Source: an uncultured archaeon
GTDB lineage: Archaea > Thermoplasmatota > Thermoplasmata > Thermoplasmatales > Thermoplasmataceae
Direction of reading: 5' to 3'
Length of the DNA stretch: 64,000 nucleotides
Assembly: GCA_000965745.1 (NCBI GenBank)
Contig: CP009479.1
Coordinates: 1,696,001-1,760,000 of the forward strand
Both the position numbers and the translations under genes were made by a program. The stretch's first letter is position 1. Each line of letters starts with the position of its first letter. Below are positions 26,204-45,122 of the stretch, in pieces. The notes beneath the pieces were generated by a model. The model was given only the letters and a program-made list of their open reading frames with translations. It had not been told where the DNA came from and did not search any database.

Positions 26204-26267
26204 CGAAGGCCTTAGTAATGCATTCAAGGTACAATTCCAGCATTTTTCCTGGAGCAGGAGGGTAAGG

Positions 26268-26822
26268 ATGCAGTCAGATACGGCCGTTGTTATATTGGGA
26301 ATGAGGGTTGGATTGGGCGGCCCCGGGGAAGAACTTGCAGGAAGGATCAGGGTTGCCATGTCAGTCGCATCAAGGATCGACCCAGAATACATAGTACTGA
26401 CCGGAGGGGTTACAAGCCATGAGACCTCAAGCTCCGAAGCCGAAGAGATGTTCACACACATCATAGAGAATTACCCTGAGAGTGACAACACATTTATCCT
26501 GGAGGATGAGGCTCTCGATACTCTTGGGAATGGCATTTTCACACGTGAGAAGCTGAAGGAATACCCTGAGATAACTAAATTACACATTGTCACCAGTTGC
26601 TACCATCTTCACAGAAGCCAATTTATCTTTGCCAGGAGTTTTTCGAACGAATACCTGACCATTGTCGAAGAATGCTTCGACTGCGACTCCAATAACGCAA
26701 CAATGGAGCAGCAAAAGCTGGCCGAAGCCCATGAATTTTTCAGGAGGGCGGAGGAGTCAGGGACCTGCTATATGGATGCACTGCTGGAAACTGAGATATA
26801 CCTTGGAAAGAAGGTATATTGA
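26268..26822 (+). CDS. YdcF/DUF218 (SanA/ElyC-like) family protein
   Basis: VILG, VLTGG, SEAEEM, LEDEALDTLGN, VTSCYHLHRS. Confidence 0.8.
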   Translation: MQSDTAVVILGMRVGLGGPGEELAGRIRVAMSVASRIDPEYIVLTGGVTSHETSSSEAEEMFTHIIENYPESDNTFILEDEALDTLGNGIFTREKLKEYPEITKLHIVTSCYHLHRSQFIFARSFSNEYLTIVEECFDCDSNNATMEQQKLAEAHEFFRRAEESGTCYMDALLETEIYLGKKVY

Positions 26823-26839
26823 ATTTCAGGACAGTTCCT

Positions 26840-28075: not shown

Positions 28076-28270
28076 AGCGCATTGATCACTGTAAATATAT
28101 TTAGAACTTGCCACCGCGATGGGTTCACAATAAAATAATGGCTTGGATGAGACGAGCACAGGAAAGACCGAACTTAATGTGGAATGTTATCTTATGTGGC
28201 GAACACCTGCCTCTTGATACCAGCGGAAGTTCAAGGCAAGTAATATATAATAACTTATTTTAAGCCAACA

Positions 28271-29671: not shown

Positions 29672-29683
29672 AGTCCGGAGCGA

Positions 29684-30775: not shown

Positions 30776-31009
30776 TGGGCACTCACAGAGCGTAAATGGA
30801 TATTAAGTCAGTCCTGCGTGGTTCTTATCAGTACGGTCTGAATAACCTCTCTTTTTGCACCAGTAATACTAGACATTGTTTATTTAGGCTGAACAATTGA
30901 TCCAATCAGGGGTGCCTGCTCTACGAACACATCTGTAAAATTCGGTTCGCTTGTTTCAGAGGGAAAAAAACGGGGAAAAGGTTTTCTCAACATTAAAGAC
31001 GGAATTATA

Positions 31010-32083
31010 GTGTCCATCACTTCTTCCCCCAGGGAAGGCTTCGAAATTGAGGACTATTCAGAAAATACCGTAGTCCCGGGGCTCATAGACATTCATACCC
31101 ATGGTTACAGGGGTACCGATTCAATGGGCTCGGATTTGAATTCCATATTGAAGTGGGCATCAGACATAACTTCTCACGGAGTGACTGGTATACTTCCTAC
31201 TTCTGTATCTGCCAGCCACAGGAATGTTGTTCACTTTCTTGATCGGATAAGTGATGTAATCGAGGAATCCAACCATAATCACGGGGCCGAAATACTGGGG
31301 TCCAGGCTTGAAGGCCCATACATAAACAGAATCAAGGCTGGTGCCCACAGGAGGGAATATATACGAACTCCAAGCGAATTCGAGATCAATGATATTTCCA
31401 GCTTTCATTCAGCCAACCTGAAGATAGTTGACCTCGCACCTGAGATTTCAGGCGCAACGGAAGCAATGAAGAAACTGGTCAGGAAGGGAATTATTATTTC
31501 AGCCGGCCACACAAACGCCAATTTCGAACAGGCAAAATCATTCTTTTCAAGCGGAGTAAGGCTGCTGACCCACTTCTACAACGCAATGTCCGGCTTTCAT
31601 CACAGGGACGTTGGGATGGTAGGCGCCGGCCTTCTGCTTCCGAACTTCAGCCTCGAACTGATTTCTGATTTCAAACACACCGCCCCGGAGGCGATAGACA
31701 TCGCCGTAAAAAACAAAACCTGGAGAAACATAATACTCATTACAGATTCTATGTCCGCCACCGACCTGGGTGACGGGAATTACAAACTTGGAGACCTTGA
31801 AGCGGAGGTGGTGGATGCAACCTGCTACATCAAGGGTACGAGGACACTTGCGGGAAGCACACTCACACTGGACAAGGGAATAAAGAACCTGTTTGAGCAT
31901 GGTTACGACCTGAGTGAAGTAATCGGATCAGCCACGAAGAATCCCGCAGAGCTTCTGGGCCTGAATGACAGGGGAGTCCTTGAACCCGGTTATCGGGGTG
32001 ACCTTTGCCTCCTCGATAACGAGATGAATGTAGTTGCAACCTACGTAAGGGGAGAGCAGGTTTTTGATTCGGAGAAACCCTGA
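31010..32083 (+). CDS. nagA: N-acetylglucosamine-6-phosphate deacetylase (true start probably further upstream)
   Basis: PGLIDIHTHG, LEGPYI..KAGAH, APE, AGHT, THFYNAM, ITDSM, LAGS, NPA. Confidence 0.93.
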   Translation: MSITSSPREGFEIEDYSENTVVPGLIDIHTHGYRGTDSMGSDLNSILKWASDITSHGVTGILPTSVSASHRNVVHFLDRISDVIEESNHNHGAEILGSRLEGPYINRIKAGAHRREYIRTPSEFEINDISSFHSANLKIVDLAPEISGATEAMKKLVRKGIIISAGHTNANFEQAKSFFSSGVRLLTHFYNAMSGFHHRDVGMVGAGLLLPNFSLELISDFKHTAPEAIDIAVKNKTWRNIILITDSMSATDLGDGNYKLGDLEAEVVDATCYIKGTRTLAGSTLTLDKGIKNLFEHGYDLSEVIGSATKNPAELLGLNDRGVLEPGYRGDLCLLDNEMNVVATYVRGEQVFDSEKP

Positions 32084-32095
32084 AAATAAATTCTC

Positions 32096-33118
32096 CTACA
32101 TGAGGAGATACGATGATTTTTCAGATTCAGGCAACCCCGTTACTCTTTGATCAAGCTCCCTTGCCAGAAGATCAATCTCCCGCATTCCAAGATTCTTCCC
32201 GTTCTGGCTTAAAACGGTCTGTACAGACCCCAAAACAGCATGGTACCCGAACAGGGGGCTTTCCATTTCCACATTCTCGATCTTGTCGGTGATCTCATTA
32301 ACAAAAGTTTCCCAGTAAATTTTCCCTGCCCTGAAGACCCCACCATATCCGCTAACCGGTAGTGGACCTTCCGCACCTAGTAAATTCTGAAGTGAGATGA
32401 CTGACCTGGCCGCCTCCGATGCAGCCTCTTCAAGTATGTGAGCTGAAAGTTCATCCCCACTGCTGGCAAGGGACGACACCACTCTTGCGAGGGAGGCAAT
32501 CCTTCTGACATTGATCCTTTCACTGTAGACTTCATTGACGAGCCCTCTCGGTTCAGCCACAGAGAATTCATTCATAACCGCTTCCAGTAATTCCTTTGAG
32601 TGTAATGTTCTCCCATCGGCAATCTTAGCGGATTCCTGGATCGCTCTCCTCCCAATGTAGAACGCCCCCCCTTCATCACCGATAAACCACCCCCATCCGC
32701 TGCACCTCTCAAAACGGTCCCCCTTCCTGCCGTAAGCTATCATCCCGGTCCCCGGTGCAGCAATTATTCCATCCCGGTCCGGGAATCGGCACCTGAATCC
32801 GGCTTCGCCGTCATTAAGCAGCGAATATCTGCCCTGAAGCTTGTAGGAGGATATGAAATCATCAATTATCTCGGTGGATTTTGCGGAATCCTTGACGCCA
32901 GCCATGGCGAAGGTAAAGTAATCAACCTCCGCCCAGCTGACGCCGCTCCTCCGAAGGGCATCATCGATCGCTGACTTGACATTTAACCTGGCCGCCTCTA
33001 TTCCAACATTCCTGAAATTTGAGGGCCCATTGACGCCAATCTGCAGAATCCTGCCGGAATCATCATAGGCAACAGCAATTGTTTTGGTAGCACCTCCGTC
33101 CAGGGAGACAAAAATCAT
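32096..33118 (-). CDS. BadF/BadG/BcrA/BcrD-type N-acetyl-amino-sugar kinase (GlcNAc/MurNAc kinase, MurK-like)
   Basis: DGGATKT, GPSN, ND, GTG, GWGWFIGDEGGAFYIG; amino-sugar gene context. Confidence 0.82.
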   Translation of the reverse strand: MIFVSLDGGATKTIAVAYDDSGRILQIGVNGPSNFRNVGIEAARLNVKSAIDDALRRSGVSWAEVDYFTFAMAGVKDSAKSTEIIDDFISSYKLQGRYSLLNDGEAGFRCRFPDRDGIIAAPGTGMIAYGRKGDRFERCSGWGWFIGDEGGAFYIGRRAIQESAKIADGRTLHSKELLEAVMNEFSVAEPRGLVNEVYSERINVRRIASLARVVSSLASSGDELSAHILEEAASEAARSVISLQNLLGAEGPLPVSGYGGVFRAGKIYWETFVNEITDKIENVEMESPLFGYHAVLGSVQTVLSQNGKNLGMREIDLLARELDQRVTGLPESEKSSYLLM

Positions 33119-33178
33119 TCATCAGTGAGGTGTAGTGCAATTATACATTTTTGGTTGACAAAAAGCTGCCAGGCGGCG

Positions 33179-34267
33179 CTATTCGATATTTCTGAATACT
33201 GCGTTGTGGAACAGCCTCCTGAACCTAAGGATGCCGATGTTGTCCCTTGTTGGGTAAACGCGGTTGCTCAGTACAGTTACGGCAATTTTCCTTTTTATAT
33301 CTATCACCAGGGATGTGCCGGTAAATCCCGTGTGTCCGATAGTGCCAAAGTCCGCATAGTCGCCCATGAATGACGAGAACCCGAAAGAATCACTCGGATT
33401 CCTTGGTCTGGGCAGCTTTATCATCCATCCAAGCCCAAAAGTTCCTCCAAGGTACTCATTGGCCGGCGAGGACATAAGGTTCAGTGTACTGGAAGAGAAA
33501 AGCCTGCATTCAAGAAGGGCATTGGTAAACCTGGACATGTCTTCAAGATTGCTGAAGAGGCCTGCGTGGCCTGCAACTCCGCCAAGATAGAACGCATTTT
33601 CATCGTGCACTTTGCCCCATACGAGGCCACGTTCTTCTGTCATCTCTGTAGGGGCAACCGTATCTTTGGAAAAATCCGGGTTGAAGGACGAACTCTTCAT
33701 TCCAAGAGGATCGAATATCTCTTCACGGGCAAGCACATCGAGACGCTTTCCGGATATGTGCTCAAGGAGGAATGCGAGGGTCATGAAGTTCAAGTCACTG
33801 TACTCCTCTTTTGTATACATGCTGGCAGATGCTGCGAAACCCTTTATTCCAGTGAGATAACCTTCCCTGTTTTGCCCAAAAGAGTACAGCGGGTAATGCC
33901 ATATCAGTCCCGAAGAGTGTGAAAGAAGGGATTTGACAGTCAGCTGTCCAGCTCTGCCAGAATCTGCAAACAGCCCTAGTGATGCAAGGGAGTCATCGAG
34001 CGCAATCTTCCCCCGGTCTAACATTTTCATGACAAGCGTGGTCGTGACTACAGGTTTTGTCAGTGAAGCCATATCAAAAATCGTCTCTTTGTTGAAATGA
34101 AATTCAGGACTGCCAATGTTTCCTTCTGCAAATGCAAATTCGCTTCTTCCCTCAATAGTCACGGAAGCTGCCATTCCCGGTGAAACTGCCGGGATATGTT
34201 CCTTTATCAGGGACCGCAATTCGAGAGTTGCCTCCTTTCTCAATCTTATTCCTGCCAGATCACTCAT
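33179..34267 (-). CDS. amiE: Beta-lactamase-fold serine hydrolase, AmiE/YbbE-like MurNAc-L-Ala amidase
   Basis: FDMASLTK (SxxK), YSDLNF, GKVHDENAFYLGGVAGHAGLFS (YbbE/AmiE subfamily motif), GHTGFTGT; clustered with nagZ/namZ/murQ. Confidence 0.72.
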   Translation of the reverse strand: MSDLAGIRLRKEATLELRSLIKEHIPAVSPGMAASVTIEGRSEFAFAEGNIGSPEFHFNKETIFDMASLTKPVVTTTLVMKMLDRGKIALDDSLASLGLFADSGRAGQLTVKSLLSHSSGLIWHYPLYSFGQNREGYLTGIKGFAASASMYTKEEYSDLNFMTLAFLLEHISGKRLDVLAREEIFDPLGMKSSSFNPDFSKDTVAPTEMTEERGLVWGKVHDENAFYLGGVAGHAGLFSNLEDMSRFTNALLECRLFSSSTLNLMSSPANEYLGGTFGLGWMIKLPRPRNPSDSFGFSSFMGDYADFGTIGHTGFTGTSLVIDIKRKIAVTVLSNRVYPTRDNIGILRFRRLFHNAVFRNIE

Positions 34268-34296
34268 CCTCCTATCTCAATTCGAAACAGACTGCC

Positions 34297-35280
34297 TCAC
34301 TTCACAACTTTAGTCAACTTTTCGGGCTTGTCAGGGTTCAGGCCCATGCTGTTTGCTTTGTAGTACGCGAGTAGTTGTATCGGAATAGAATACCTTATTG
34401 GGGCAAACATACCTGGATCGTATGGAAGCTTTACCGTATCCATTTCTGCTGATCCCATCGTAATGATGCTGCTCGTGTATTTTTTCATCTCTGAAATGAC
34501 CGGTGAATAGCCATCATAGGCATCTCTCAGTATCATCACCGAGGTATCTGCATCAAGTGTCTGTATCGGGCCGTGCAGATATTCACGTATCTGGTACGCT
34601 TCCGTCAGAAGGTTGCCGGTTTCCCTGAATTTAAGTGCTCCTTCGAGTGCAGTGCCAAACATGTACCCATTTCCAAGAAACACTATTCGGCTTTTCAGGG
34701 CCCTGGAAAGGTGCTCATATTCTCCGGTGTGTGAAGTGGCATTATCTGCCCAGGATGCTATTTCTGTAACATAACTCATCGGGTCCATGCCGTGAAGATG
34801 GCCCTGGATCAAGGCTACAGCTGTCAGCTGGGCAACATAACTCTTCGTTGCAGCTATTGCAGTTTCACTGCCTGCAGATGTTAACACGGATATGTCTGCT
34901 TTATGGGCCAGTGAGCTATTTTCCTCATTCGTTATTCCGATCACCCTTGCACCGCAGACAGCAGAAAGGTTGAGTGCATTCAGTGCATCAGCACTTTCTC
35001 CAGATTGGCTCATAACAACTACTGCCACTTTCTTCTCCGGTTTTCCTGGAATGTAATTTTCAAAATCAGGCGCCTTGACCAGTACTGCCGGCACATCCTC
35101 CTTCAGCAGGGATATTTGCAGAGAAAGGCCTGCATGATAGCTCGTGCCGCTGCCTGTTATGATCACATAATCGGAGCCAAGAAGGGCGTCTGCTGCTTCA
35201 CCTGCTGATTTCCGCACGGATTCAACAGTTCTCAGTATGGATTTTCCATCCTGTTTTATTTCATCAAGCATAACAGACAT
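34297..35280 (-). CDS. Double-SIS glucosamine-6-phosphate deaminase (isomerising; GlmD/NagB-II type)
   Basis: GlmS isomerase-like motifs GSGTSYHA, SQSGES, ATKSY, EGALKFRE, EYLHGP, NPDKPEKLTKVV, with no glutaminase domain. Confidence 0.8.
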   Translation of the reverse strand: MSVMLDEIKQDGKSILRTVESVRKSAGEAADALLGSDYVIITGSGTSYHAGLSLQISLLKEDVPAVLVKAPDFENYIPGKPEKKVAVVVMSQSGESADALNALNLSAVCGARVIGITNEENSSLAHKADISVLTSAGSETAIAATKSYVAQLTAVALIQGHLHGMDPMSYVTEIASWADNATSHTGEYEHLSRALKSRIVFLGNGYMFGTALEGALKFRETGNLLTEAYQIREYLHGPIQTLDADTSVMILRDAYDGYSPVISEMKKYTSSIITMGSAEMDTVKLPYDPGMFAPIRYSIPIQLLAYYKANSMGLNPDKPEKLTKVVK

Positions 35281-35342
35281 TGTTAGGCTTAACCCTCAAA
35301 CAGCTTAAAATTTCACATTCGATCGGAAGCAATATTTCCGAT

Positions 35343-36455
35343 TCAGAGGTTCTTTATTTCATTCAACAATTGAAAGTAGTTATCTCCAGGGAGAATTTTT
35401 CCGAGGACAGCAGGCTTTCCGCCACTTGCCTCAGTGTTGCCAATTCTGTTATGCAGGGTCTGGTTTGCGATAACAGCGAATCCGACACCTTCCCTTGCCT
35501 TGTCGTCTATGCCATGATCGCTGAATCTCTCAACCTTGACTGAAAACAGATCTGCGAGGTCTTTCATAAGTACCGGATTAAAGCTGCCTCCACCGCCTAC
35601 GATTATTGTCCCAATCCTGTGTGGGATAAACCTGTCCATTTGGTCCTTGATGGATTCTGCCGTGAATCTGGTCAGGGTCCTGATCACATCTTTCTGCGGC
35701 ACATCTTCTTCTGAAATCCTCTTCTGTACATAATCTTCTGTGAAATATTCCCTGCCAGTACTTTTTGGAGGACTTTTCCTGAAGTAATCATCGTCCAGGA
35801 GTTTCATGAGCAATGCTTCATTTATAGAGCCTCCCCCGGCAAACTCCCCATTCTCATCATAATCGCGGCCGGTAAATTTCTTCATGAAGGTATCGATGAG
35901 CATATTTCCCGGCCCGGTGTCAAATGCAATTAATCTATCGCCAATGTATGTGATGTTGGAAATTCCACCTATGTTCAGAGTAACAGTTCCTTCCTCCCCG
36001 AACAATAGCTTGTCGGAAAGTGGAATGAGTGGCGCTCCATCACCACCCATGCTCAGGTCGGTTGTCCTGAAATCGAAAATAACCGTTTTCCGGGTTCTGG
36101 AGAAAATCTCAGAGGGCTCTCCGATCTGAAGTGTCCCTTTATCACGTTTGCCGAGTGATGGACCATGAAATACGGTATACCCGGAAAATGCCACAACATC
36201 ATAATCCCAGTCGAGTATCCCGAGCGACTCTCCCACAAACCGGCCAAGGTACCAGTGGGCTTCGCTGAATTCCTCACTGGTCAACGGTTTCATGGTTGAA
36301 ACTTTGAGCAGCATTTCCCTGAGTGAATCGCTGAATGGAAATTCAACATGCTGCAGCACCCTGACTCTAGTGGTCTCATCCCACCCGTTGATTTCCAGAA
36401 GCGAAATGCTCAATCCATCAGTGGATGTTCCGGTTACGACAGAGGCAAACTTCAA
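35343..36455 (-). CDS. anmK: Anhydro-N-acetylmuramic acid kinase
   Basis: GTSTDG, TLQIG, DFR..D..MGGDGAPL, LNIGGISNIT, AFDTGPGNMLID, PPKSTGREYF, GGGSFN. Confidence 0.92.
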   Translation of the reverse strand: MKFASVVTGTSTDGLSISLLEINGWDETTRVRVLQHVEFPFSDSLREMLLKVSTMKPLTSEEFSEAHWYLGRFVGESLGILDWDYDVVAFSGYTVFHGPSLGKRDKGTLQIGEPSEIFSRTRKTVIFDFRTTDLSMGGDGAPLIPLSDKLLFGEEGTVTLNIGGISNITYIGDRLIAFDTGPGNMLIDTFMKKFTGRDYDENGEFAGGGSINEALLMKLLDDDYFRKSPPKSTGREYFTEDYVQKRISEEDVPQKDVIRTLTRFTAESIKDQMDRFIPHRIGTIIVGGGGSFNPVLMKDLADLFSVKVERFSDHGIDDKAREGVGFAVIANQTLHNRIGNTEASGGKPAVLGKILPGDNYFQLLNEIKNL

Positions 36456-36544
36456 TGATCACAATATACGGCAGAATGTAAAAATGCTTTGAATAATCAA
36501 TTCAGATAAATTATTAATGCATAGTTAACCTCATAGGTAAGGAA

Positions 36545-37366
36545 ATGGAAGGCACAGAAGACAACAATACATTTTCGAGGAACATAGACCAATGGAATAC
36601 GCCTGAAATTCTCAAGTTCATCCATCTATCAGACATCGATGCCTATGAAGCGGTTTCTGCAGCAATGGAACAGATAACGGAAGCAACGGAGAAGATAGTT
36701 GAAAGGCTTGATGATGGCGGAAGAGTCATCTATGCGGGAGCCGGGACAAGCGGAAGGCTGGCTGCTCAGGACGTCGCTGAACTCTGGCCAACATACGGTA
36801 TAGGTTCGACACTCTTTGACTACATAATAGCCGGGGGCAGGGAGGCAATCAGCCACTCAGTCGAAGGTGCAGAAGACAGCCTGCAGGAATCGGTTGACCT
36901 TTTGAAGCAGAAAGGTTTGGGGAAAAATGATGTTGTCTTCGGAATAACAGCTTCCGGAACTACCCCGTTTGTCTTATCTGCACTTGAATATGCCAGGTCG
37001 GTGGGCGCCCTGTCAGTCGGAATGACGAATAACAGGTGCAGGCCTGTTGAGGAGATCGCAAAGATTGCAATAGTTCTGAACACCGGACCTGAGGTTATAC
37101 AGGGGTCTACAAGGATGAAAGCTGGAACATCACAGAAAATGGTCCTGAGCATGATTTCCACAGCAGTTGCCATCAAGCTTGGCTACACCCACAGGAACAC
37201 CATGTCCAACATGGGCGCATGGTACAACCAGAAGCTCCAGAGGAGGGCAGTGAAGATGGTTGTCCAGGAGTTTGGCGTGAGTGAAGCAGATGCAAGGAAG
37301 CTGCTTGAAGACCACTCCTACAGGATCGCGGAGGTATTTTCGCTCCTAAGCAGAAAAAAGGGCTGA
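36545..37366 (+). CDS. murQ: N-acetylmuramic acid 6-phosphate etherase
   Basis: GAGTSGRL, DVAELWPTY, EGAED, GITASGTTPFV, TGPEVIQGSTRMKAGTSQK. Confidence 0.93.
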   Translation: MEGTEDNNTFSRNIDQWNTPEILKFIHLSDIDAYEAVSAAMEQITEATEKIVERLDDGGRVIYAGAGTSGRLAAQDVAELWPTYGIGSTLFDYIIAGGREAISHSVEGAEDSLQESVDLLKQKGLGKNDVVFGITASGTTPFVLSALEYARSVGALSVGMTNNRCRPVEEIAKIAIVLNTGPEVIQGSTRMKAGTSQKMVLSMISTAVAIKLGYTHRNTMSNMGAWYNQKLQRRAVKMVVQEFGVSEADARKLLEDHSYRIAEVFSLLSRKKG

Positions 37367-37426: not shown

Positions 37427-38533
37427 ATGGCGGCAAAAAACATGATTCTATCGTATTGCTTCAGAGACTCGAACGGAGATATAATTGAGTCCTGCAACCA
37501 GACGTATCCTCTTCTTCCCGCCTCAAACATTAAGGTCGTCTCCGGCTATACGGCTTACAGGATGCTCGGAAGAGACTTTGAGTTCAGGACCGATTTCTCC
37601 CTCCATGATAAAGATATGCTGATACACGGTGATCCAACGCCATTGCTGAGCAGGCAGAAGCTCAGGGAAATACTAGTGGCGTCCGGGTTAGACAGGAAAG
37701 ACCTTGAAAGGGTGCTTTTCAAAGATGATATATTTGACGACAGGGAATTTGCGGATGGCTGGAGTATAGAAGACATAGGCTTCTGCTACCAGGCCCGGGT
37801 TGTCCCTTTCTCAGTCGACGAGGGGTGCTACTGTAAAGAACAGGGTGGGTGTGATGGAAGTGCGCCCCTCCATGATGTCGCCAAACAATCGGTAAATGAC
37901 CAGCTGGCAAATTTTGCCAGGGAGATATCCAGTATTGTTTCAGCGAACAACGAAATAGAATACGGCCGGTTCACCCATAATTCCAGCAATCCTCATTTCG
38001 TTTACAGGGAGAGCCTGCTGGATATTCTAGACCACATTGAAGTTTACAGCTGCAATTTTTCAATAGAGGTGCTTACAAAATATCTGTCCTACAGAAAGAC
38101 TGGCAGGGGTTCATGGGAGGACTCTGCAGAAATAATATCGGATTACATGAAATCGCTGGGGCTGGATGCATCAGGCATAAGAATCGTCGACGGGTCCGGC
38201 CTTTCAAGGTCAAACCTGATGAGTACGGAATTTCTTTCAGATCTGGCACACAAAATCATCGAGAATGGTGACAACGAATTCATGAAACTTCTGCCCTCTC
38301 CGGGAAGGGGAACATTGAGGGGCAGGCTGGACAAGCTTTCAAATTTAGGCCTGCACGCCAAAACAGGCTCTCTCGAATATTGTGGAAGCCTGACAGGCTA
38401 CCTGGAGAAGCCTGGAGTCTTTTTCAGCATAATCATAAACAACTCTCTGGAGAATGGGAAAAAGATCATAAACAAGATAGACAACCTCCTGGTGGATTTC
38501 CTTGGCAGAAACGGGATTCAATTGGAAGGTTAG
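37427..38533 (+). CDS. dacB: Peptidase S13 D-Ala-D-Ala carboxypeptidase/endopeptidase (PBP4-like), no signal peptide
   Basis: PASNIK (SxxK), GDP, SCN (SxN), DGSGLSRSN, GTL..R, AKTGSL (KTG). Confidence 0.88.
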   Translation: MAAKNMILSYCFRDSNGDIIESCNQTYPLLPASNIKVVSGYTAYRMLGRDFEFRTDFSLHDKDMLIHGDPTPLLSRQKLREILVASGLDRKDLERVLFKDDIFDDREFADGWSIEDIGFCYQARVVPFSVDEGCYCKEQGGCDGSAPLHDVAKQSVNDQLANFAREISSIVSANNEIEYGRFTHNSSNPHFVYRESLLDILDHIEVYSCNFSIEVLTKYLSYRKTGRGSWEDSAEIISDYMKSLGLDASGIRIVDGSGLSRSNLMSTEFLSDLAHKIIENGDNEFMKLLPSPGRGTLRGRLDKLSNLGLHAKTGSLEYCGSLTGYLEKPGVFFSIIINNSLENGKKIINKIDNLLVDFLGRNGIQLEG

Positions 38534-39261
38534 GTTATTTCCACGAGCTCTCTCTGCTCAACCTTCTCTATTTTAACGTCATGCGGAAATCTGGAAGCCT
38601 TCAGCAGGCTCGATGAGACCACTCCCACCCAGCCTTCTTTCTCGACCCGGTACATCGTAACATATTCATTGTCAAACCTGCTGTCCCCGTAGTAAAAGAG
38701 CCTCCCCTTCCTGGTGACCTTGTCAACAGCAAGGACAAATATGTTGTTCGTTGTTTTTACAAAATCAAACCTTCCTGAATCCTCTAGGGTTTTTCGTATC
38801 TTTTCTTCAATATCTCCCTCCTGCCTCATCAGGTACTCAAGAAAGAACTCACTGTCCGGCTGATTGTCAAGATTACCTTCATTGAGGGCGCCGGCTATGT
38901 TCTCTTTCCTGTATGAGCCATTATGAACGAGATAGACGTCGTACTCAGTGTTGCTTCGGTGATGGGGGTGCGAGTCAAGCATTCCGACCGGTTCACCTGC
39001 GGCTGCCTTTCGTGCATGGACAACAAGTATCCCACTTTCGGGGAACTCAGGTTTTCTGCTGTTGAAAATAGGCTCCCGGTACCTTCTGAAATCTATTGAG
39101 TTTTGGTCCATAGCCACATATCCCCAGCCATCGTCGTGGGACGGGTCACCTTTTCTGTCTTCAGGGAACAGTGGATCATGCCTGCATACTTCTACAAGCG
39201 ATTCAAAAACATCATTCGCATCAGATTTGAAATCCCCAAACATCGTAAACATTCTACACAA
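38530..39261 (-). CDS. Class II glutamine amidotransferase-like Ntn hydrolase (YafJ/EgtC-like)
   Basis: TTG start at 39261 gives M-C-R-M (N-terminal nucleophile Cys), HDDGWG, HARKA, HPH, HNGS, DSE. Confidence 0.8.
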   Translation of the reverse strand: MCRMFTMFGDFKSDANDVFESLVEVCRHDPLFPEDRKGDPSHDDGWGYVAMDQNSIDFRRYREPIFNSRKPEFPESGILVVHARKAAAGEPVGMLDSHPHHRSNTEYDVYLVHNGSYRKENIAGALNEGNLDNQPDSEFFLEYLMRQEGDIEEKIRKTLEDSGRFDFVKTTNNIFVLAVDKVTRKGRLFYYGDSRFDNEYVTMYRVEKEGWVGVVSSSLLKASRFPHDVKIEKVEQRELVEIT

Positions 39262-39369
39262 TTCAGAGCGCCCGGTCTTGAGAAGCATTCCATTGGATAA
39301 ATATGATCCTGCCCGTGGTTGTTGTCTCATTCTGGAAATGAATATTAATGCAAACACACATGATCAACA

Positions 39370-40191
39370 ATGAGGATACTGATCTCGGTTGATGCAGAGG
39401 GGCTTCAGGGCATAACGTTCGGTACGCAGGTTCTTCCCGGGATGCCCGATTATTATCTGGCAAGAGAGACAATGGCACAGTCGGTAAACAGCGTGGGACG
39501 GGGAATTAGGTCAAGCGGTGTCGCCGAGAAGGTTACTGTTGTAGATTCACACGATGGAAGCAGGAATATACTTGCAGAATCACTCGACCCGGGAATTTCA
39601 TTGATAACTGGGGGACCTAAGCCCTTGAGCATGGTCGAGGGAGCCAGGAAAACTGATAAAATGTTCTTACTGGGTTATCACCCCAGGGCAGGAACTGAAG
39701 CCGGTGTACTTGACCACACCTATTCCACCAATGTTCACAGGCTCAGGATAAACGGGGAAGAAATGGGGGAGATTGGCCTGAGTGCCTCAGTTGCCGGCCA
39801 TTTTGGAGTCCCCGTTACTTTGTTGGCAGGAGACAGGGCTGCGGTTGGGGAAGGTGAGAAGATTATCAATGACGCTGAATTTGTAGTCCTGAAAGATGGC
39901 ATATCCAGGTACTCTGCAGAAACTTCAGTTCCAGTTGATGCCGAATCGATGCTGGAGAAATCTGCGCTTAAAGGTGCCAGGAGAAAGGGAACTCCTTTCG
40001 TCATTGATGGCAGCGTGGAAGTTTCATTAGAATTCCAGAACACGGGGATGGCGGACAACTGCATGATGCTTCCCGGTACGGTCAGAAAGGACGGCTATAC
40101 AGTACAGGCTGAAGCAAAGGATATCGTTGAGGCATACAGGATTTTCAGGGTGCTTGTATCGCTGTCATCATTTGATCATGGTGGTTATTGA
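39370..40191 (+). CDS. dppA: M55-family D-aminopeptidase (Bacillus DppA type)
   Basis: ISVDAEG, DSHDG, KPLSMVEG, GYH, HTYS, GE, GD. Confidence 0.9.
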   Translation: MRILISVDAEGLQGITFGTQVLPGMPDYYLARETMAQSVNSVGRGIRSSGVAEKVTVVDSHDGSRNILAESLDPGISLITGGPKPLSMVEGARKTDKMFLLGYHPRAGTEAGVLDHTYSTNVHRLRINGEEMGEIGLSASVAGHFGVPVTLLAGDRAAVGEGEKIINDAEFVVLKDGISRYSAETSVPVDAESMLEKSALKGARRKGTPFVIDGSVEVSLEFQNTGMADNCMMLPGTVRKDGYTVQAEAKDIVEAYRIFRVLVSLSSFDHGGY

Positions 40192-40203
40192 AGGGAGCCG
40201 ACA

Positions 40204-40908
40204 TCAATATGGCAGGCTGATCCTTGTGGATCTGTCGATTCTGCCTATTTTTTCAAATATTTTCAAAAGAAGCTGTGAATATTCACTACCATCAGACAGA
40301 TCACTGTAGGTAACTCCGCCGTTGTGGAGGTTCGCATGGATTATCGTGTTGTTCCCAAGATAGAGGCCAACGTGTCCTTCAAAGAAGACAAGGTCGCCTG
40401 ATTCAGCGTCTTCAAACGAGTCGACTGTTAATGAATTATCCCTCTGCCAACCCGCATTTCTCGGAATTTCAATCCCATTGAACCTGAAAAGCCTCTGCGT
40501 GAAGCCTGAGCAGTCATAGCCCAGATCGGACGTGCCTCCCCAGAGGTATGGGACTGTCAGGAACTCATGGGCAGACTCTGAAGGTTCAAGCCTTTCTTCA
40601 AGTTTCATCAGCAGGTTTTCGGGGATATCATGTTCGGAAATATCATCATCGTTGACACAGGACCCGAATGAAAAGATCATTCTCGTTGAGCGATAATTTC
40701 TCCTAATCCTGTAATTTTTCTTTCTGCCTTCCGATACCAGGGTTCTGAGGACGTATCCTTTCAGCTTGTCCGCCCCTTCCACGTAAAGGTAATCATCGGA
40801 TTCTGAAATCACCTTGACTTCTTCGCCGAATATTAGCTGAGAGTCCCTTTCACTGTGAAAGTCTGCCCCGACCCTGACATCTGCAACGCTGAAGGAAATG
40901 TATGACAT
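40204..40908 (-). CDS. NlpC/P60 (C40) peptidase, YkfC-like gamma-D-glutamyl-diamino acid endopeptidase
   Basis: SH3-like N-terminus (SQLIFGEEV), PYLWGG, DCSGF, PRNAGWQ, GDLVFF.GHVGLY, IIHA; no signal peptide; TTTTAA about 25 nt before ATG 40908. Confidence 0.85.
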   Translation of the reverse strand: MSYISFSVADVRVGADFHSERDSQLIFGEEVKVISESDDYLYVEGADKLKGYVLRTLVSEGRKKNYRIRRNYRSTRMIFSFGSCVNDDDISEHDIPENLLMKLEERLEPSESAHEFLTVPYLWGGTSDLGYDCSGFTQRLFRFNGIEIPRNAGWQRDNSLTVDSFEDAESGDLVFFEGHVGLYLGNNTIIHANLHNGGVTYSDLSDGSEYSQLLLKIFEKIGRIDRSTRISLPY

Positions 40909-41001
40909 GCCTGCGGTCATTCTCAGGACGCCTTAAAAGCTTTTTACCCGATTCTTCACTCTCCTGATGCAACTTAAATAAGATGGCAAAGATACTGTGG
41001 C

Positions 41002-42279
41002 ATGTCTGGCAGACTGCATATCCCTCCACCTTTCCAGGAAAGAGAAGGCCGCCTGTATCTTGATGGCCTTGACCTTGTTGAAATAGCTTCCAGGTATGGA
41101 ACGCCCGTTTACGTCACTTCATCAGGAAGGATCAGGGAGAATTACAGGAGAATTTACAGTGCATTCAAGGAGAGGTATGATAATTTTTCCGTGAAATACG
41201 CAGTCAAAGCAAATTCAAATCCACACATAATCTCGGTCCTGGCAGAAGAAGGGGCAGGAGCTGATGTCTCCAACCTGAACGAGCTTCTTATTGCAGAAAA
41301 GTCAGGCATTCCCGCAAAGCAGATCCTCATGTCGCCCAACAACCTCAGCAGGGAGGAACTTGCTAAAGCCTCCAGCAGGGGTGTTGCGATTAACTTTGAC
41401 GACATAGGCCAAATGGAAATCATTTCAGACAGCCTTCCGAGTTTAGTTTCGTTCAGGGTAAACCCCGGCATCGGCAGGGGAGAATTTCCCGGAACAGTAA
41501 CTGCGGGCCCGGACGCCAAGTTTGGAATCCCTGAGGATCACGTTATTGAAGCGTACAGGAAAGCGAAGGATCACGGTGTCAGAAGATTCGGCATCCAGAT
41601 GATGACCGGTTCCAACGTTCTGGATTCCGGCTATTTTGGTGCGATAACATCAAAATTATTTGACATAACAAGAAGAATAAGCGATCATGCAGGCATTGAT
41701 TTTGAATTCGTGGACATAGGTGGAGGCTTTGGCGTCCCATACAGGCCTGATGAAAAGGCACTCCCGATCGATGTTGTGGCCGGGGAAGTGTCCAGAGGCC
41801 TGAAGGATAAGTTCGCTTCCGTTGGAAAACCTCTCCCTGCACTCTTTGTGGAGCCTGGCAGGTATCTTGTTGCGGATTCGACGGTGCTGCTCGGCAGAAT
41901 AACAAACGTGAAGTCATATGGAAAGACATTCATCGGGACTGATGTGGGGATGAATACGCTACTGAGGCCCGCACTTTATGGAGCATACCATCCGGTTTCG
42001 ATTGCCAACAAGCTCGATCATGAAGCCAAAATCACTGCAGATGTTGTAGGGCAGATCTGTGAAAACACTGACCGGATTGCCCTTGACAGACGCCTCCCCG
42101 ATGTTGAGGAGGGAGATATACTGGCAGTTTTCAATGCCGGGGCATACGGATTCAGCATGAGCAACCAGTTTAATGGCCACGGAAAGCCCGCTGAAGTCCT
42201 GGTCTCCGACGGTAAAGACAAGCTCATAAGGAGAAGGGAAAACATAGATGATCTACTGCAGACCGTGGTCCACGATTAA
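41002..42279 (+). CDS. lysA: Diaminopimelate decarboxylase
   Basis: YGTP, YAVKAN (PLP Lys), RVNP, KFG, DIGGGFG, EPGRYLV, RPALY, GQICENTD, GAYG. Confidence 0.92.
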   Translation: MSGRLHIPPPFQEREGRLYLDGLDLVEIASRYGTPVYVTSSGRIRENYRRIYSAFKERYDNFSVKYAVKANSNPHIISVLAEEGAGADVSNLNELLIAEKSGIPAKQILMSPNNLSREELAKASSRGVAINFDDIGQMEIISDSLPSLVSFRVNPGIGRGEFPGTVTAGPDAKFGIPEDHVIEAYRKAKDHGVRRFGIQMMTGSNVLDSGYFGAITSKLFDITRRISDHAGIDFEFVDIGGGFGVPYRPDEKALPIDVVAGEVSRGLKDKFASVGKPLPALFVEPGRYLVADSTVLLGRITNVKSYGKTFIGTDVGMNTLLRPALYGAYHPVSIANKLDHEAKITADVVGQICENTDRIALDRRLPDVEEGDILAVFNAGAYGFSMSNQFNGHGKPAEVLVSDGKDKLIRRRENIDDLLQTVVHD

Positions 42280-42326: not shown

Positions 42327-45122
42327 TTACGTGTAGGACAGGTACTGATACAGCATTATGTTGTCCCCGGCAACCATGATATTCTCCTCGTACGTTGTGA
42401 TCGCAGTCGGATTAATCTGAGGGCTTATCTCCCTCCACTGGATTTCCTGAACGATCGGAATGGTCAGCGTCAGATTCACGAACTCGCCGTTCATTTTCTG
42501 GAACCAGTACTTGGACTGATCCGGAGTGAGTGCTGCCGATCCATTGTTGTAATCATTCACAAGGCTCTGCAGGGACATGGCCTCAGTCTTGTTCTGGTAT
42601 GAATTCGACGTGTTGCCATAGATCCAGTACGGAGTCATGTCAGACGGCCCGACGAAGGTGGACCCGTTTGTAGGCAGTGCTATTGGAGCCAGGTAGTCCG
42701 TGGGGTACGGGTAATCCGGATACCAGTCCTGGATGAATATCGGCATCGGGTTCCCGTTCGGAACGTCGTATGCATTCCTGACTATCCCAGTTACCTGCTG
42801 TATAGTCAGTTTAATGCCAGTCAGGTTGGAGACTGCACTTGCCCATACCGGCAGCATGCCTATATCTGAGGTCTTCTGCGTAAGGATAAATACCGGTATC
42901 TGGACCTGTTTGCTGTTGTACATTGCCTTTCCGCCTGAATATGTTATTCCGAGGTTATTGGACCCATTAAGGAAGTAGTTCCAGTATTGTTTGGCAAGCG
43001 TAGGACTGAAGTAAGGCACCGCCGAACCAGATGCATTCAGCTGAGCCGGTGACTGTGCATACAGCATTCCTGCTGGGAGTGCTCCCGCGAAGCTCTGTCC
43101 GAATTTTGTGTGGTAAATAGAGTTTCCCAGTTCGTAATTAAGGTAGTACTGGTCATTGAATGCATATGAAAGTGCTTTCCTCACATTCAGGTCAGAGAAC
43201 AGATTTGAGGGCATATTGGCCTGAGAATCAATGTTCTTTGTCAGCATGGTTGTGTTAACATTGGCATTGAATGCGTACCACCATATCCCAAGGGATGGAT
43301 ATCCATAAGGCTTTGCCGCTCCACTGTTGTTCAGTGCCTGGACATCATTCCAGTTTGCTGTCGGGATGCTTGTTCCCTGAGCCTGTCCTGATTTGACTGC
43401 CAGGTAAGCCTGTGAAGGCGAGTTGATGTAGTTTATCACAATCTCGTGTATCTTCGGCTTGGGGTCCCAGGACCCTGGTGACGTGAATTCCGGATTTGCA
43501 ACCAGAACAACCTGTGAGCTCGGGCTGATATATGCTATCTTATATGGCCCCGTGGCCAGTACATGGTTCTCCACATACTGGTTGTAATTCCCCGAATCTG
43601 CCTGCGACTGGTAGTTCTTGAATCCCTGCGGTGACCACTTTATCCCCGCACCATGTGCTTCAAGCCACTTTGCACTTGTAATCCATGTTCCGCTGGTTTC
43701 CAGTATCTGGAAAACAAGGGCTGCAGGCATTGAGTTCTGGAAATGGAATGTTATTGAGTTTGTATTGTTGTTCACTGTCATGTTGTTCGTGATGTTGTAG
43801 AATGTATTGCTTGAGAAATAGTCTCCCGGAAGCAGATACTGTGCCTGAATCCATCCCGGTGTCCCTGGTGATCCGCCGTCAAAGAGCAGAGTCCTGGTGA
43901 ATGAGTACATTACATCCCATGCCGTAACAGGAGATCCATCCTGGAATGAGGCGTTCTGCCTTATCTGGAATGTAAAGTTCTGTGACGGCCTGAGGTGAAC
44001 AGTGTATGTGGTTCCCCACGGGGTTGTCTCAGTGTAGTTCTTTGAGTTGTTGTTAACCATGCCGTTTGCCATTGACGGCACTGCAGTGGCGAGGGCAGGC
44101 AGGAATGAAGTTGCCGATGACTTGTTGAAAGTAAGCAGCCATTGAGCTGTGTTGTCCAGTATGCTGTATCCAAGAAGATCATAGTTGATAGCCGGGTCGA
44201 GTGTTGTATAACCTCCAGGTGCAACCTGATCGTTCACAAAGATGGAGTTGCTGGTTGGAGGCTGATAAAGTACCGCGTTTTTAAACACCGGCACATCAGT
44301 GTAGTAATTTGTGCTGTGAAGCCCCATGGATACGTTAAGCGCGCCTGTGGTTGTGTTGGCAACATCTGCAGTGTACGTTGTGACTTCTATCACATAGTAC
44401 CCTTCCTTCATTCCACTCATGTTGAGAAGTGAAGATGAGGATGGAAGCTCATATACACCGGAACTCGAATTGAACGAATAACCAAGCTGTTCAGATCTCA
44501 TGATGGATCCGTTAAGGTACAAATTGGCTGTCTGGCTGACAACCTGGAAACTCGAATTTGAAGGCTGTGTGAAATATCCTATCAGGAATGATGCATGTGA
44601 GCCCGGGGAAAAGACCGTGGTCTGATTGATCTCAGGCTGACTTGACCCGGACTGAACCAGGTTTACAAGACCTATCGATGAATACTGGTCCAGTGATGAA
44701 CTGGTGGCTATGACCTTCACCATTGAACCGCTTCCCTCATACACTGAATTTCCAAAGTTGATTGTGTAGTATATGTAATAGGTTCCAGGGTGTTCATAGA
44801 CGTGCGAAACAGATATGTTGGTAGTTCCGGAATAGTATATCTTAGTCTGTGTGTGGTCTCCAAAATAGACAGTCATGTCCTTGAATACTCCATTAGCATG
44901 CACTGTGAAATTATACGTGCTGCCCGTGGCTGTTGACGATGCAGCGCTGGCTACATTCGCGGAACTTCCCCGGGCCGTAGAATGACCGAAATTCAGTACG
45001 GCAAGTCCGGCGATTATGATGACCAGCACCACAATTACCGCAAGGAGCGCCCTGCTCCCTGAACCTCTCCCCGCTGGTGGTCCAGCCGGGCCAGGTACAA
45101 TCGGATCTTTTGTATCTGTCAT
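42327..45122 (-). CDS. ABC solute-binding protein family 5 with TM and PKD-like domain (paralog 2)
   Basis: YFGD...HVY, TLDPA, FQDGSPVTAWDVMYSFTRTLLFD, WYPDYPYP. Confidence 0.85.
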   Translation of the reverse strand: MTDTKDPIVPGPAGPPAGRGSGSRALLAVIVVLVIIIAGLAVLNFGHSTARGSSANVASAASSTATGSTYNFTVHANGVFKDMTVYFGDHTQTKIYYSGTTNISVSHVYEHPGTYYIYYTINFGNSVYEGSGSMVKVIATSSSLDQYSSIGLVNLVQSGSSQPEINQTTVFSPGSHASFLIGYFTQPSNSSFQVVSQTANLYLNGSIMRSEQLGYSFNSSSGVYELPSSSSLLNMSGMKEGYYVIEVTTYTADVANTTTGALNVSMGLHSTNYYTDVPVFKNAVLYQPPTSNSIFVNDQVAPGGYTTLDPAINYDLLGYSILDNTAQWLLTFNKSSATSFLPALATAVPSMANGMVNNNSKNYTETTPWGTTYTVHLRPSQNFTFQIRQNASFQDGSPVTAWDVMYSFTRTLLFDGGSPGTPGWIQAQYLLPGDYFSSNTFYNITNNMTVNNNTNSITFHFQNSMPAALVFQILETSGTWITSAKWLEAHGAGIKWSPQGFKNYQSQADSGNYNQYVENHVLATGPYKIAYISPSSQVVLVANPEFTSPGSWDPKPKIHEIVINYINSPSQAYLAVKSGQAQGTSIPTANWNDVQALNNSGAAKPYGYPSLGIWWYAFNANVNTTMLTKNIDSQANMPSNLFSDLNVRKALSYAFNDQYYLNYELGNSIYHTKFGQSFAGALPAGMLYAQSPAQLNASGSAVPYFSPTLAKQYWNYFLNGSNNLGITYSGGKAMYNSKQVQIPVFILTQKTSDIGMLPVWASAVSNLTGIKLTIQQVTGIVRNAYDVPNGNPMPIFIQDWYPDYPYPTDYLAPIALPTNGSTFVGPSDMTPYWIYGNTSNSYQNKTEAMSLQSLVNDYNNGSAALTPDQSKYWFQKMNGEFVNLTLTIPIVQEIQWREISPQINPTAITTYEENIMVAGDNIMLYQYLSYT

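What the first reader, a model, noticed from the sequence alone, without database searches (positions are those of the whole stretch)
37427..42279. Peptide arm: stem-peptide disassembly ending in lysA, suggesting lysine is harvested from bacterial meso-DAP
Seen: DacB-like, DppA, YkfC-like and LysA genes sit side by side, with no other dap genes in the window. Established: DacB cuts D-Ala-D-Ala and D-Ala-mDAP cross-links, YkfC cuts gamma-D-Glu-mDAP, DppA cleaves D-Ala peptides, and LysA converts mDAP to L-Lys. Inference: LysA acts here as a salvage enzyme, converting scavenged mDAP into lysine, which points to mDAP-type walls as the target.
Basis: partly seen in the sequence, partly recalled or inferred. 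Interest (0 to 1): 0.78.

Follow-up and report, generated by a model that had tools for sequence, protein, structure and literature searches.

The report
Archaeal lysine salvage from bacterial walls
A wall-less archaeon that has lost the known genes for making lysine keeps only the last enzyme of that pathway, placed among enzymes that cut up bacterial cell-wall peptides, so it most likely makes lysine from the diaminopimelate of dead bacteria.

Summary
Window 37427-42279 encodes an S13 DD-peptidase, an M55 D-aminopeptidase, an SH3+NlpC/P60 peptidase and a LysA above the TIGR01048 cut-off. A fifth gene, a stand-alone Ntn amidohydrolase, was not mentioned. The genes alternate strands, lack export signals, and lie in a ~27-kb murein-catabolic island with an Opp-type importer.

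The salvage reading is well supported by genomics, but no substrate or flux was measured.
- The complete 2.23-Mb archaeal genome gave no match for dapB, dapF, ddh, DapL, lysW or lysX. It has only sub-cut-off dapA paralogues.
- LysA orthologues (about 53% identity) sit in dapA-dapB-lysA-aminotransferase operons in other archaea.
- Elsewhere in the class, 25 of 27 lysA genomes have dapB. In this family the figures are 35 lysA versus 7 dapB of 61 genomes.
- All 14 MurQ-bearing genomes in the family have lysA, within 5 kb of an island gene in each. In 9 relatives the order is S13 then lysA.
- In 10 genomes without the island, lysA adjoins an APC amino-acid permease instead.

One oddity: the PLP-stacking His is Met in this archaeal LysA clade, including the copies inside dap operons.

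This scan noted LysA-linked murein salvage before, on other archaeal and bacterial DNA. I found no published description for archaea.

The parts
37427..38533 (+). Cytoplasmic S13 (PBP4/DacB-family) DD-peptidase, 368 aa, shortened form
   Evidence: PF02113 131.8 bits in two stretches, covering model positions 30-188 and 273-441. TIGR00666 scores 102 against a cut-off of 107.8. Motifs S33-N-I-K36, S208-C-N210 and K312-T-G are present. No N-terminal hydrophobic segment. It lies directly upstream of lysA in 9 relatives.
38530..39261 (-). Stand-alone class-II GATase-like Ntn amidohydrolase, 243 aa from the TTG start (M-C-R). The open frame runs on to a GTG at 39357.
   Evidence: PF13230 23.1 bits against a cut-off of 23. 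AlphaFold2 pLDDT 93. Foldseek places it with the Ntn glutaminase fold; the best stand-alone match is EgtC at E about 6e-9 and TM 0.63-0.71. A 35%-identical homologue sits in another murein island, L068.
39370..40191 (+). M55 D-aminopeptidase (DppA family), 273 aa
   Evidence: PF04951 265 bits. Full-length alignment to B. subtilis DppA 1HI9, E 1.9e-40, with D8, E10, H61, H104 and E134 conserved. NCBIfam DppA equivalog scores 188, below its cut-off of 430.
40204..40920 (-). SH3b + NlpC/P60 cysteine peptidase, YkfC / gamma-D-Glu-diamino-acid endopeptidase type, 238 aa
   Evidence: PF18348 + PF00877. The best solved relative is B. cereus YkfC 3H41, E 2.7e-17. C137, H183 and H195 are present. No signal peptide. 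It is divergent from lysA across 81 bp.
41002..42279 (+). LysA, meso-diaminopimelate decarboxylase (archaeal clade with Met in place of the PLP-stacking His), 425 aa
   Evidence: TIGR01048 386 bits against 298. The best solved relatives are all DAPDCs: 2P3E, 1TWI, 2YXX. K69, R287, R322, Y326 and E354 are kept; position 201 is Met instead of His. Single copy in the genome.
42327..45122 (-). Membrane-anchored 931-aa family-5 solute-binding protein with no permease gene next to it, convergent with lysA
   Evidence: PF00496 138 bits. N-terminal TM anchor. Kept next to lysA in two genomes of the same genus.
19163..37366 (.). Remainder of the island: M20 peptidase, Opp-type ABC importer (20427-26203), DUF218, surface Cys-His protein, NagZ, NamZ, NagA-like, BadF-type kinase, PBP4B-like, SIS deaminase-like, AnmK, MurQ
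   Evidence: Pfam and NCBIfam assignments.

Best explanation
The stretch is the peptide branch of a cytoplasmic catabolic island for bacterial murein fragments. LysA is its last step.

Proposed route:
1. Muropeptides or free stem peptides enter through the neighbouring Opp-type ABC system and its anchored binding proteins.
2. Inside the cell, the S13 DD-peptidase trims D-Ala-D-Ala ends or opens D-Ala-mDAP cross-links.
3. The YkfC-like NlpC/P60 peptidase cuts gamma-D-Glu|mDAP.
4. The M55 D-aminopeptidase, and probably the Ntn amidohydrolase, remove remaining D-residues or amide groups.
5. LysA decarboxylates the D-centre of the freed meso-DAP to give L-lysine.

The genome has neither the DAP nor the LysW/aminoadipate route to lysine. 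LysA is therefore a retained remnant of a lost dap operon that now works as a salvage enzyme.

Shown here: gene identities, catalytic residues, absence of export signals, absence of the other lysine-pathway genes, and conserved linkage in relatives.

Inferred: the substrates, the order of steps and the flow of mDAP into lysine.
For: 1. Identity. LysA scores above the TIGR01048 cut-off. The residues shown in T. maritima DAPDC to hold the distal carboxylate (R249, R285) and the distal amino group (E315), together with the PLP lysine, are all conserved here as R287, R322, E354 and K69.

2. The clade is a real DAP-pathway LysA. Orthologues at 52-53% identity with the same motifs lie in dapA-dapB-(lysC)-lysA-aminotransferase operons in other archaea.

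3. The rest of the pathway is missing here.
- dapB, dapF, ddh, DapL, lysW and lysX gave no match in a 99.4%-complete single-contig genome.
- The dapA-like genes are sub-cut-off paralogues, only 28-30% identical to operon dapA.

4. Decoupling is specific to this family.
- In a class-wide sample, 25 of 27 lysA-positive genomes outside the family have dapB, often adjacent.
- Within the family, 35 of 61 genomes have lysA but only 7 have a dapB-like gene and none has dapF.

5. Linkage to the island.
- All 14 MurQ-positive family genomes also have S13, NlpC/P60 and lysA.
- lysA is within 5 kb of an island gene in all 13 relatives.
- The order is S13 then lysA, co-directional with gaps of about 65-90 bp, in 9 genomes of 4 genera.

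6. The peptidases keep their catalytic motifs and lack N-terminal hydrophobic segments.

7. A genome of the same genus that lacks the island also lacks lysA (G009).
Against: - No enzyme activity, expression or isotope data exist.
- lysA also occurs in 21 family genomes without MurQ. It is therefore not tied to the island alone. In 10 of these genomes it adjoins an APC permease.
- The PLP-stacking His (TmDAPDC H179) is Met201 here, and the motif reads CENTD rather than CES/TxD. Kinetics or specificity could therefore differ from studied DAPDCs.
- Two steps needed to free mDAP from a MurNAc-tetrapeptide have no assigned enzyme. No Amidase_2 family protein and no S66 LD-carboxypeptidase was found.
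- The five genes alternate strands, and I saw no shared operator in the intergenic regions.
Confidence: 0.66

Rival explanations
1. Proton-consuming or bioenergetic decarboxylation. LysA serves mainly to consume a cytoplasmic proton and to dispose of mDAP. It could be coupled to substrate/product exchange through an APC transporter, as in Cad, Adi and Gad acid-resistance systems. On this reading lysine supply is a by-product.
For: In 10 family genomes from 4 genera, lysA adjoins a ~590-aa APC-superfamily permease. The own genome has an orthologue elsewhere. An earlier scan note describes the family as acid-loving.
Against: - The permease has no affinity to known antiporter subfamilies above noise. 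Its best match is the generic TIGR00909 at 162 bits against a cut-off of 557.
- In this genome the permease lies 1.7 Mb from lysA.
- An organism without any lysine pathway has an obvious use for the lysine.
- Environmental mDAP is scarce compared with Glu, Arg and Lys.
Confidence: 0.1
2. Ordinary biosynthetic LysA, fed by an unrecognised route to DAP in this genome. Its position among murein genes would then be incidental.
For: - One dapA-family gene scores 184.6 bits, best to dapA, just under the 206 cut-off.
- Several generic class-I aminotransferases are present.
- Seven family genomes have a stand-alone dapB-like gene.
Against: - dapB, dapF, ddh and DapL gave no match in a complete genome.
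- The dapA-like gene is only 28-30% identical to operon dapA, whereas lysA is 53% identical to operon lysA.
- dapB-like and lysA do not co-vary in the family: only 3 genomes have both, against 35 with lysA. Outside the family they co-occur almost perfectly.
- Linkage to S13 and NlpC/P60 recurs in 7 genera.
Confidence: 0.07
3. The enzyme acts on a different substrate, for example another D-amino acid or a DAP derivative from murein. The cause would be its altered active site.
For: Position 201 is Met where the PLP-stacking His normally sits, and position 355 is Asn where Ser or Thr is usual. Both changes hold across the clade. DAPDC relatives such as D-Orn/D-Lys decarboxylase exist.
Against: - The same Met/CENTD variants occur in LysAs encoded inside dapA-dapB operons.
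- The distal-carboxylate Arg pair and the Glu are kept.
- The DokD model scores only 128 bits against a cut-off of 700.
Confidence: 0.08
4. Chance neighbourhood. lysA is a decaying or function-less remnant that happens to lie in an accessory island.
For: The genes alternate strands, and no shared regulatory motif was seen.
Against: - The reading frame is intact and the catalytic residues are conserved.
- Orthologues are 45-70% identical across the family.
- Adjacency to S13 or NlpC/P60 has been rebuilt in different arrangements in several LysA lineages.
Confidence: 0.04

Closest known systems
E. coli murein-peptide recycling and catabolism: Opp/MppA import, LdcA, MpaA, YcjG, PepD, with freed mDAP open to LysA (from my own knowledge of the literature)
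   Same: Stem peptides are imported by an Opp-type ABC system with a dedicated binding protein. The gamma-D-Glu-mDAP bond is cleaved in the cytoplasm, and the free mDAP can become lysine through LysA.
   Different: - E. coli makes its own DAP and murein, and mainly re-uses the tripeptide.
- In the archaeon no murein is made, no DAP pathway was found, and neither an AmpD/AmiD-type amidase nor LdcA was found.
- The gamma-D-Glu-mDAP cut is assigned to an NlpC/P60 enzyme here rather than to the M14 enzyme MpaA.
- lysA is physically embedded in the island.
Bacillus ykfABCD/dppA locus: YkfC gamma-D-Glu-diamino-acid endopeptidase (3H41) and DppA D-aminopeptidase (1HI9)
   Same: The NlpC/P60 protein finds YkfC 3H41 as its best solved relative and has an SH3b domain and the Cys-His-His triad. 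The M55 protein aligns over its full length with DppA. Both lie near a Dpp/Opp importer.
   Different: - One SH3b domain is detected here.
- No YkfA-type LD-carboxypeptidase was found in the genome and no YkfB-type dipeptide epimerase lies in the island.
- The Bacillus locus, as I recall it, carries no lysA.
- The host here is an archaeon.
Biosynthetic archaeal LysA in dapA-dapB-lysA-aminotransferase operons (loci L060, L062, L063)
   Same: Same LysA clade, at 52-53% identity, with the same Met and CENTD motifs.
   Different: In those genomes LysA is the last step of de novo synthesis. Here, and in most of this family, the partner genes are gone and lysA has moved next to murein peptidases or a permease.
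Bacterivorous anaerobic ciliates that acquired pbp4b, NamZ, anmK, murQ and lysA by lateral transfer (PMC13198582)
   Same: A consumer without murein carries the same set of murein-sugar enzymes, a DD-peptidase and lysA.
   Different: The ciliates are eukaryotes and their genes are scattered. That paper treats lysA as amino-acid biosynthesis and does not link it to murein peptides.

Membership tests
Diaminopimelate decarboxylase LysA (TIGR01048; fold-type III PLP decarboxylase) | Score above the curated equivalog cut-off | tested here: met
   386.3 bits against 297.9. The top 15 solved relatives are all DAPDCs.
Diaminopimelate decarboxylase LysA | PLP-binding Lys, two Arg for the distal carboxylate, and Glu from the partner subunit for the distal amino group (TmDAPDC K46, R249, R285, E315; PMC8277567) | tested here: met
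   K69, R287 (in EPGR), R322 (in RPALY) and E354 (in CENTD), by alignment to 2P3E and 1TWI and by motif mapping.
Diaminopimelate decarboxylase LysA | His stacking on the PLP ring (TmDAPDC H179, in the HxHxGS motif) | tested here: not met
   Met201, in GIQMMTGSN. The same Met is found throughout the archaeal clade, including copies inside dap operons. I therefore read it as a clade variant, not a loss of function.
Diaminopimelate decarboxylase LysA | Decarboxylates meso-DAP to L-lysine | not testable with these tools
   Needs an enzyme assay.
Peptidase S13 (PBP4/DacB, R39, PBP4a) | SxxK, SxN and KTG active-site motifs | tested here: met
   S33-N-I-K36, S208-C-N210 and K312-T-G.
Peptidase S13 (PBP4/DacB) | Exported three-domain protein of about 460-490 aa | tested here: not met
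   The protein is 368 aa. About 85 model positions (189-272) are not matched. There is no N-terminal hydrophobic segment. It scores below the TIGR00666 cut-off, 102 against 107.8.
YkfC-type gamma-D-Glu-diamino-acid endopeptidase (NlpC/P60 with SH3b) | N-terminal SH3b domain plus an NlpC/P60 domain with the Cys-His-His triad | tested here: met
   PF18348 + PF00877. C137, H183 and H195. 3H41 is the best solved relative.
YkfC-type endopeptidase | Specificity for L-Ala-gamma-D-Glu|mDAP with a free N-terminal L-Ala | not testable with these tools
   Needs a peptide assay. The MurNAc-L-Ala amidase that would expose the L-Ala is unassigned.
M55 D-aminopeptidase DppA | Full-length M55 domain with conserved metal-site residues | tested here: met
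   PF04951 265 bits. D8, E10, H61, H104 and E134 are identical to the aligned residues of 1HI9. Which of these are the metal ligands comes from my memory.
M55 D-aminopeptidase DppA | NCBIfam DppA equivalog cut-off | tested here: not met
   188 bits against 430. It is a family member, not a demonstrated equivalog.
Class-II (Ntn) glutamine amidotransferase-like hydrolase, EgtC/YafJ type | N-terminal nucleophile Cys2 and the Ntn alpha-beta-beta-alpha fold | tested here: met
   M-C-R from the TTG start at 39261. The model has pLDDT 93. Foldseek matches PurF, EgtC and GlmS glutaminase domains at E 3e-9 to 1e-6. Pfam PF13230 sits at the threshold, 23.1 against 23.
Bacterial murein recycling pathway (AmpG/AmpD/LdcA/NagZ/AnmK/MurQ) | NagZ, AnmK and MurQ | tested here: met
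Bacterial murein recycling pathway | AmpD/AmiD-type MurNAc-L-Ala amidase and LdcA LD-carboxypeptidase | tested here: not met
   PF01510 gave no match. PF02016 gave only a 20-bit sub-cut-off match.

The most novel reading that the evidence does not exclude
In this family of wall-less archaea, mDAP decarboxylation may be more than lysine salvage. Paired with an APC transporter (10 genomes) or with the murein island (14 genomes), LysA could run a precursor/product exchange that consumes a cytoplasmic proton. That would be a diaminopimelate-based acid-resistance or energy-conserving module fed by bacterial cell walls.
Probability: 0.1. Interest if true: 0.8.

Novelty: new variant of a known kind. 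Interest (0 to 1): 0.62.

Why it matters
If the reading is right, a lineage of wall-less archaea depends in part on bacterial cell walls for an essential amino acid. That would be a concrete and testable trophic link between archaea and bacteria.

It would also be a clear case of a biosynthetic end-enzyme surviving the loss of its pathway by being rewired into a catabolic island. The family-wide decoupling of lysA from dapB offers a simple genomic marker for this lifestyle. The conserved S13-then-lysA gene pair offers a minimal unit to test at the bench.

It also warns annotators that the presence of lysA does not mean lysine prototrophy.

Tried and rejected
- **Structure of the surface Cys-His protein (26840-28159).** The prediction from a 7-sequence alignment failed, with mean pLDDT 43. 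No fold search was made, and its assignment rests on sub-threshold Pfam hits only.
- **Shared operator.** Reading the island's divergent intergenic regions by eye gave nothing.
- **Permease specificity.** NCBIfam typing of the lysA-linked APC permease gave no subfamily.
- **M20 peptidase at 19163-20296 as a possible DapE.** Its best matches are glutamate-carboxypeptidase-like models, all below their cut-offs. The DapE models score lower still. Rejected as evidence for a DAP pathway.
- **MR_MLE gene 8 kb upstream of the window as a possible L-Ala-D/L-Glu epimerase.** It scores as an OSBS/NSAR-type enzyme, TIGR01928 at 405 bits. Not used.
- **dapB-like genes in 7 family genomes.** They are only 26-30% identical to operon dapB and have no dap neighbours within 1.5 kb. 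They were not counted as a pathway.
- **Literature searches.** Searches for archaeal murein scavenging with lysA, anmK or murQ found no description. The classic reports of rumen protozoa making lysine from DAP, which I recall from memory, were not retrievable.
- **LysA tree.** It is unrooted, so I draw no donor or direction from it.

Full report
**What is there.** The window lies at 1,696,001-1,760,000 of a single-contig genome of 2,226,687 bp and 46.4% G+C. The genome has an archaeal SSU rRNA. Homologue names and an earlier scan note place it in the Thermoplasmataceae.

Between 37427 and 42279 there are five genes, not four:
- an S13 DD-peptidase (37427-38533, +);
- a class-II GATase-like gene (38530-39261/39357, -);
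- an M55 D-aminopeptidase (39370-40191, +);
- an SH3_16 + NlpC/P60 peptidase (40204-40920, -);
- LysA (41002-42279, +; TIGR01048 386 bits against a cut-off of 298).

The strands alternate, so these genes are not one operon. NlpC/P60 and lysA are divergent across 81 bp.

**The enzymes look active and cytoplasmic.**
- The S13 protein keeps SxxK (S33...K36), SxN (S208-C-N210) and KTG (K312). It is a shortened form of 368 aa, and about 85 positions of the Pfam model (189-272) are not matched.
- The NlpC/P60 protein finds B. cereus YkfC (3H41) as its best solved relative and has C137, H183 and H195.
- The M55 protein aligns end to end with B. subtilis DppA (1HI9).
- The fifth gene most likely starts at the TTG that gives M-C-R. 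It folds with pLDDT 93 into an Ntn glutaminase fold. Among stand-alone proteins its closest structural match is EgtC, a gamma-glutamyl amide hydrolase.
- A 35%-identical homologue of that fifth gene sits in an independent murein island, in the order NagA, MurQ, MR_MLE, Ntn, NagZ, S15, NlpC/P60, NamZ, with an M55 gene further along the same contig. The gene therefore belongs to this kind of island.
- None of the five proteins has an N-terminal hydrophobic segment. The neighbouring binding proteins do have one.

**Surroundings.** The stretch is the right-hand part of an island running from about 19.2 kb to 46.2 kb. Upstream of the stretch, in order, the island holds:
- an M20 peptidase;
- an Opp-type ABC importer;
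- DUF218;
- a surface Cys-His protein;
- NagZ, NamZ and a NagA-like enzyme;
- a BadF-type kinase;
- a PBP4B-like protein;
- a SIS deaminase-like protein;
- AnmK and MurQ.

The five genes follow. After them come a 931-aa anchored binding protein and an FmdA-like amidase.

**Is LysA really a DAP decarboxylase?**
- All its close solved relatives are DAPDCs.
- For T. maritima DAPDC, PMC8277567 assigns K46 to PLP binding, R249 and R285 to the distal carboxylate, E315 of the partner subunit to the distal amino group, and H179 to stacking on PLP.
- The equivalents here are K69, R287, R322 and E354, all conserved. H179 is replaced by Met201, and the motif reads CENTD.
- This Met/CENTD form is typical of a large archaeal clade.
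- The same form is found in LysAs encoded inside dapA-dapB-(lysC)-lysA-aminotransferase operons, in a Conexivisphaerales genome and in Thermoplasmata genomes. Those LysAs are 52-53% identical to ours.
- By gene context, then, the clade is a genuine DAP-pathway LysA. The Met is a clade trait, not a sign of decay.

**Is there a DAP or other lysine pathway here?** The searches found none.
- dapB, dapF, ddh, DapL, LysW and LysX gave no match in a genome rated 99.4% complete.
- The two dapA-family genes score below the cut-off (184.6 and 137.6 bits against 206). They are only 28-30% identical to operon dapA, while lysA is 53% identical to operon lysA.
- lysA is therefore the only member of the operon that was kept.

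**Comparison with relatives.**
- In a class-wide sample of 101 genomes, 27 genomes outside this family have lysA. Of those, 25 also have dapB, often on the same contig within a few kb.
- Inside the family (61 genomes including this one), 35 have a lysA match, 24 of them over the cut-off. Only 7 have a dapB-like gene. That gene is a stand-alone copy, 26-30% identical to operon dapB. None of the 61 has dapF.
- MurQ occurs in 14 of the 61 genomes, spread over 7 genera. All 14 also have S13, NlpC/P60 and lysA.
- In all 13 island-bearing relatives, lysA lies within 5 kb of an island gene. In 9 genomes of 4 genera it directly follows the S13 gene on the same strand, with a gap of about 65-90 bp. In others it adjoins NlpC/P60.
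- One genome of the same genus lacks the island and lysA together (G009). Another kept M20-lysA-SBP-SBP-FmdA but lost the sugar branch and the peptidases (G028).

**A second context.**
- In 10 genomes without the island, from 4 genera, lysA adjoins a ~590-aa APC-superfamily amino-acid permease of unresolved specificity.
- On the LysA tree, the island-linked and permease-linked copies are intermingled. The neighbourhood has therefore changed several times.
- Both contexts point to an imported substrate, not to a synthesised one.

**Mechanism proposed.** Import is by the Opp-type system. DD-cleavage is by S13 and gamma-D-Glu|mDAP cleavage by the YkfC-like enzyme. M55 and the Ntn hydrolase tidy up D-residues and amides. 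LysA then decarboxylates meso-DAP to L-lysine. meso-DAP is the form found in murein, so no epimerase is needed, which fits the lack of dapF.

Two steps remain unassigned:
- the MurNAc-L-Ala amidase (no Amidase_2 family protein was found);
- the LD-carboxypeptidase (no S66 family protein was found).

Candidates for these steps are the surface Cys-His protein, the PBP4B-like protein, and the M20, amidase and FmdA-like enzymes. None was tested.

**Rivals.**
- A proton-consuming decarboxylation module is suggested by the permease pairing.
- An unrecognised biosynthetic route remains conceivable.
- The active-site variants could mean an altered substrate.
- The neighbourhood could be chance.

I rate each of these at 0.1 or less, for the reasons given in their entries.

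**Comparison with what is known.**
- The parts resemble E. coli murein-peptide catabolism and the Bacillus ykf/dppA locus. The differences are the host (an archaeon without murein or a DAP pathway), the missing AmpD and LdcA types, and a lysA built into the island.
- Anaerobic ciliates acquired pbp4b, NamZ, anmK, murQ and lysA by lateral transfer (PMC13198582). That is a parallel in a eukaryotic bacterivore.
- Full-text searches found no description of such islands in archaea.
- This scan has noted LysA in murein-salvage contexts before, on other archaeal DNA and as LysA-M19 fusions in bacteria. Those are unchecked AI notes, not independent evidence.

**Verdict.** The salvage interpretation is supported by several independent lines of genomic evidence. 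I rate it a new variant of a known kind, with interest 0.62.

Noticed in passing
window 26840-28159 (-): A 439-aa protein with an N-terminal and a C-terminal TM segment and many N-glycosylation sequons. It carries an invariant DCAHFVSEAL and a GHAMLYIG motif. Pfam hits to Amidase_6 and NlpC_P60 are sub-threshold (E 0.017 and 0.048). It may be a surface-exposed murein amidase or peptidase. In at least 5 relatives the gene order is this gene, then S13, then lysA. The structure prediction failed (pLDDT 43).
   Followed up: partly
relatives L058, L059, L050, L053, L057 and L013, L016, L020-L026, L028: In 10 family genomes without the murein island, lysA adjoins a ~590-aa APC-superfamily amino-acid permease of unknown specificity. 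The own-genome orthologue (35-42% identity) lies at about 26.2-27.8 kb of the chromosome, far from lysA.
   Followed up: partly
window 41002-42279 and proteins P0001-P0120: An archaeal LysA clade has Met in place of the PLP-stacking His (GIHMMTGSN or GIQMMTGSN) and reads CENTD. This includes copies inside dap operons. dapF was found in none of the 61 family genomes and is not in the dap operons seen (L060, L062). Which DAP isomer these enzymes take is therefore an open question.
   Followed up: partly
window 16260-19076, 42327-45122, 52387-55182: Three membrane-anchored family-5 solute-binding proteins of 931-938 aa with no permease gene next to them. Two stand beside sets of hydrolases. Same-genus relatives have two in tandem after lysA.
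   Followed up: no
L042 (G028, same genus): This genome kept M20-lysA-SBP-SBP-FmdA-like but has no MurQ, S13 or NlpC/P60 matches (96% complete). That suggests a smaller lysA module built around the M20 peptidase and the orphan binding proteins.
   Followed up: no
L068 (ENA metagenome contig): An independent murein island in the order NagA, MurQ, MR_MLE (candidate Ala-Glu epimerase), Ntn hydrolase, NagZ, S15 peptidase, SH3-NlpC/P60, NamZ, with an M55 gene further along. No lysA lies in the 12.9 kb seen.
   Followed up: no
window 45263-46198, 48936-50504, 51116-52294, 55413-56609: An FmdA/AmdA-like amidase, an Amidohydro_3 enzyme, an amidase-signature enzyme and a CpsA-like M20 carboxypeptidase flank the orphan binding proteins. 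They could deamidate or deacylate D-amino-acid peptides. None was assigned.
   Followed up: no
family genomes G006, G016, G027, G031, G035, G046, G050 (L032-L037): A stand-alone dapB-like gene (147-166 bits), 26-30% identical to operon dapB, with no dap neighbours. Four of the seven genomes lack lysA, so its role is unclear.
   Followed up: partly
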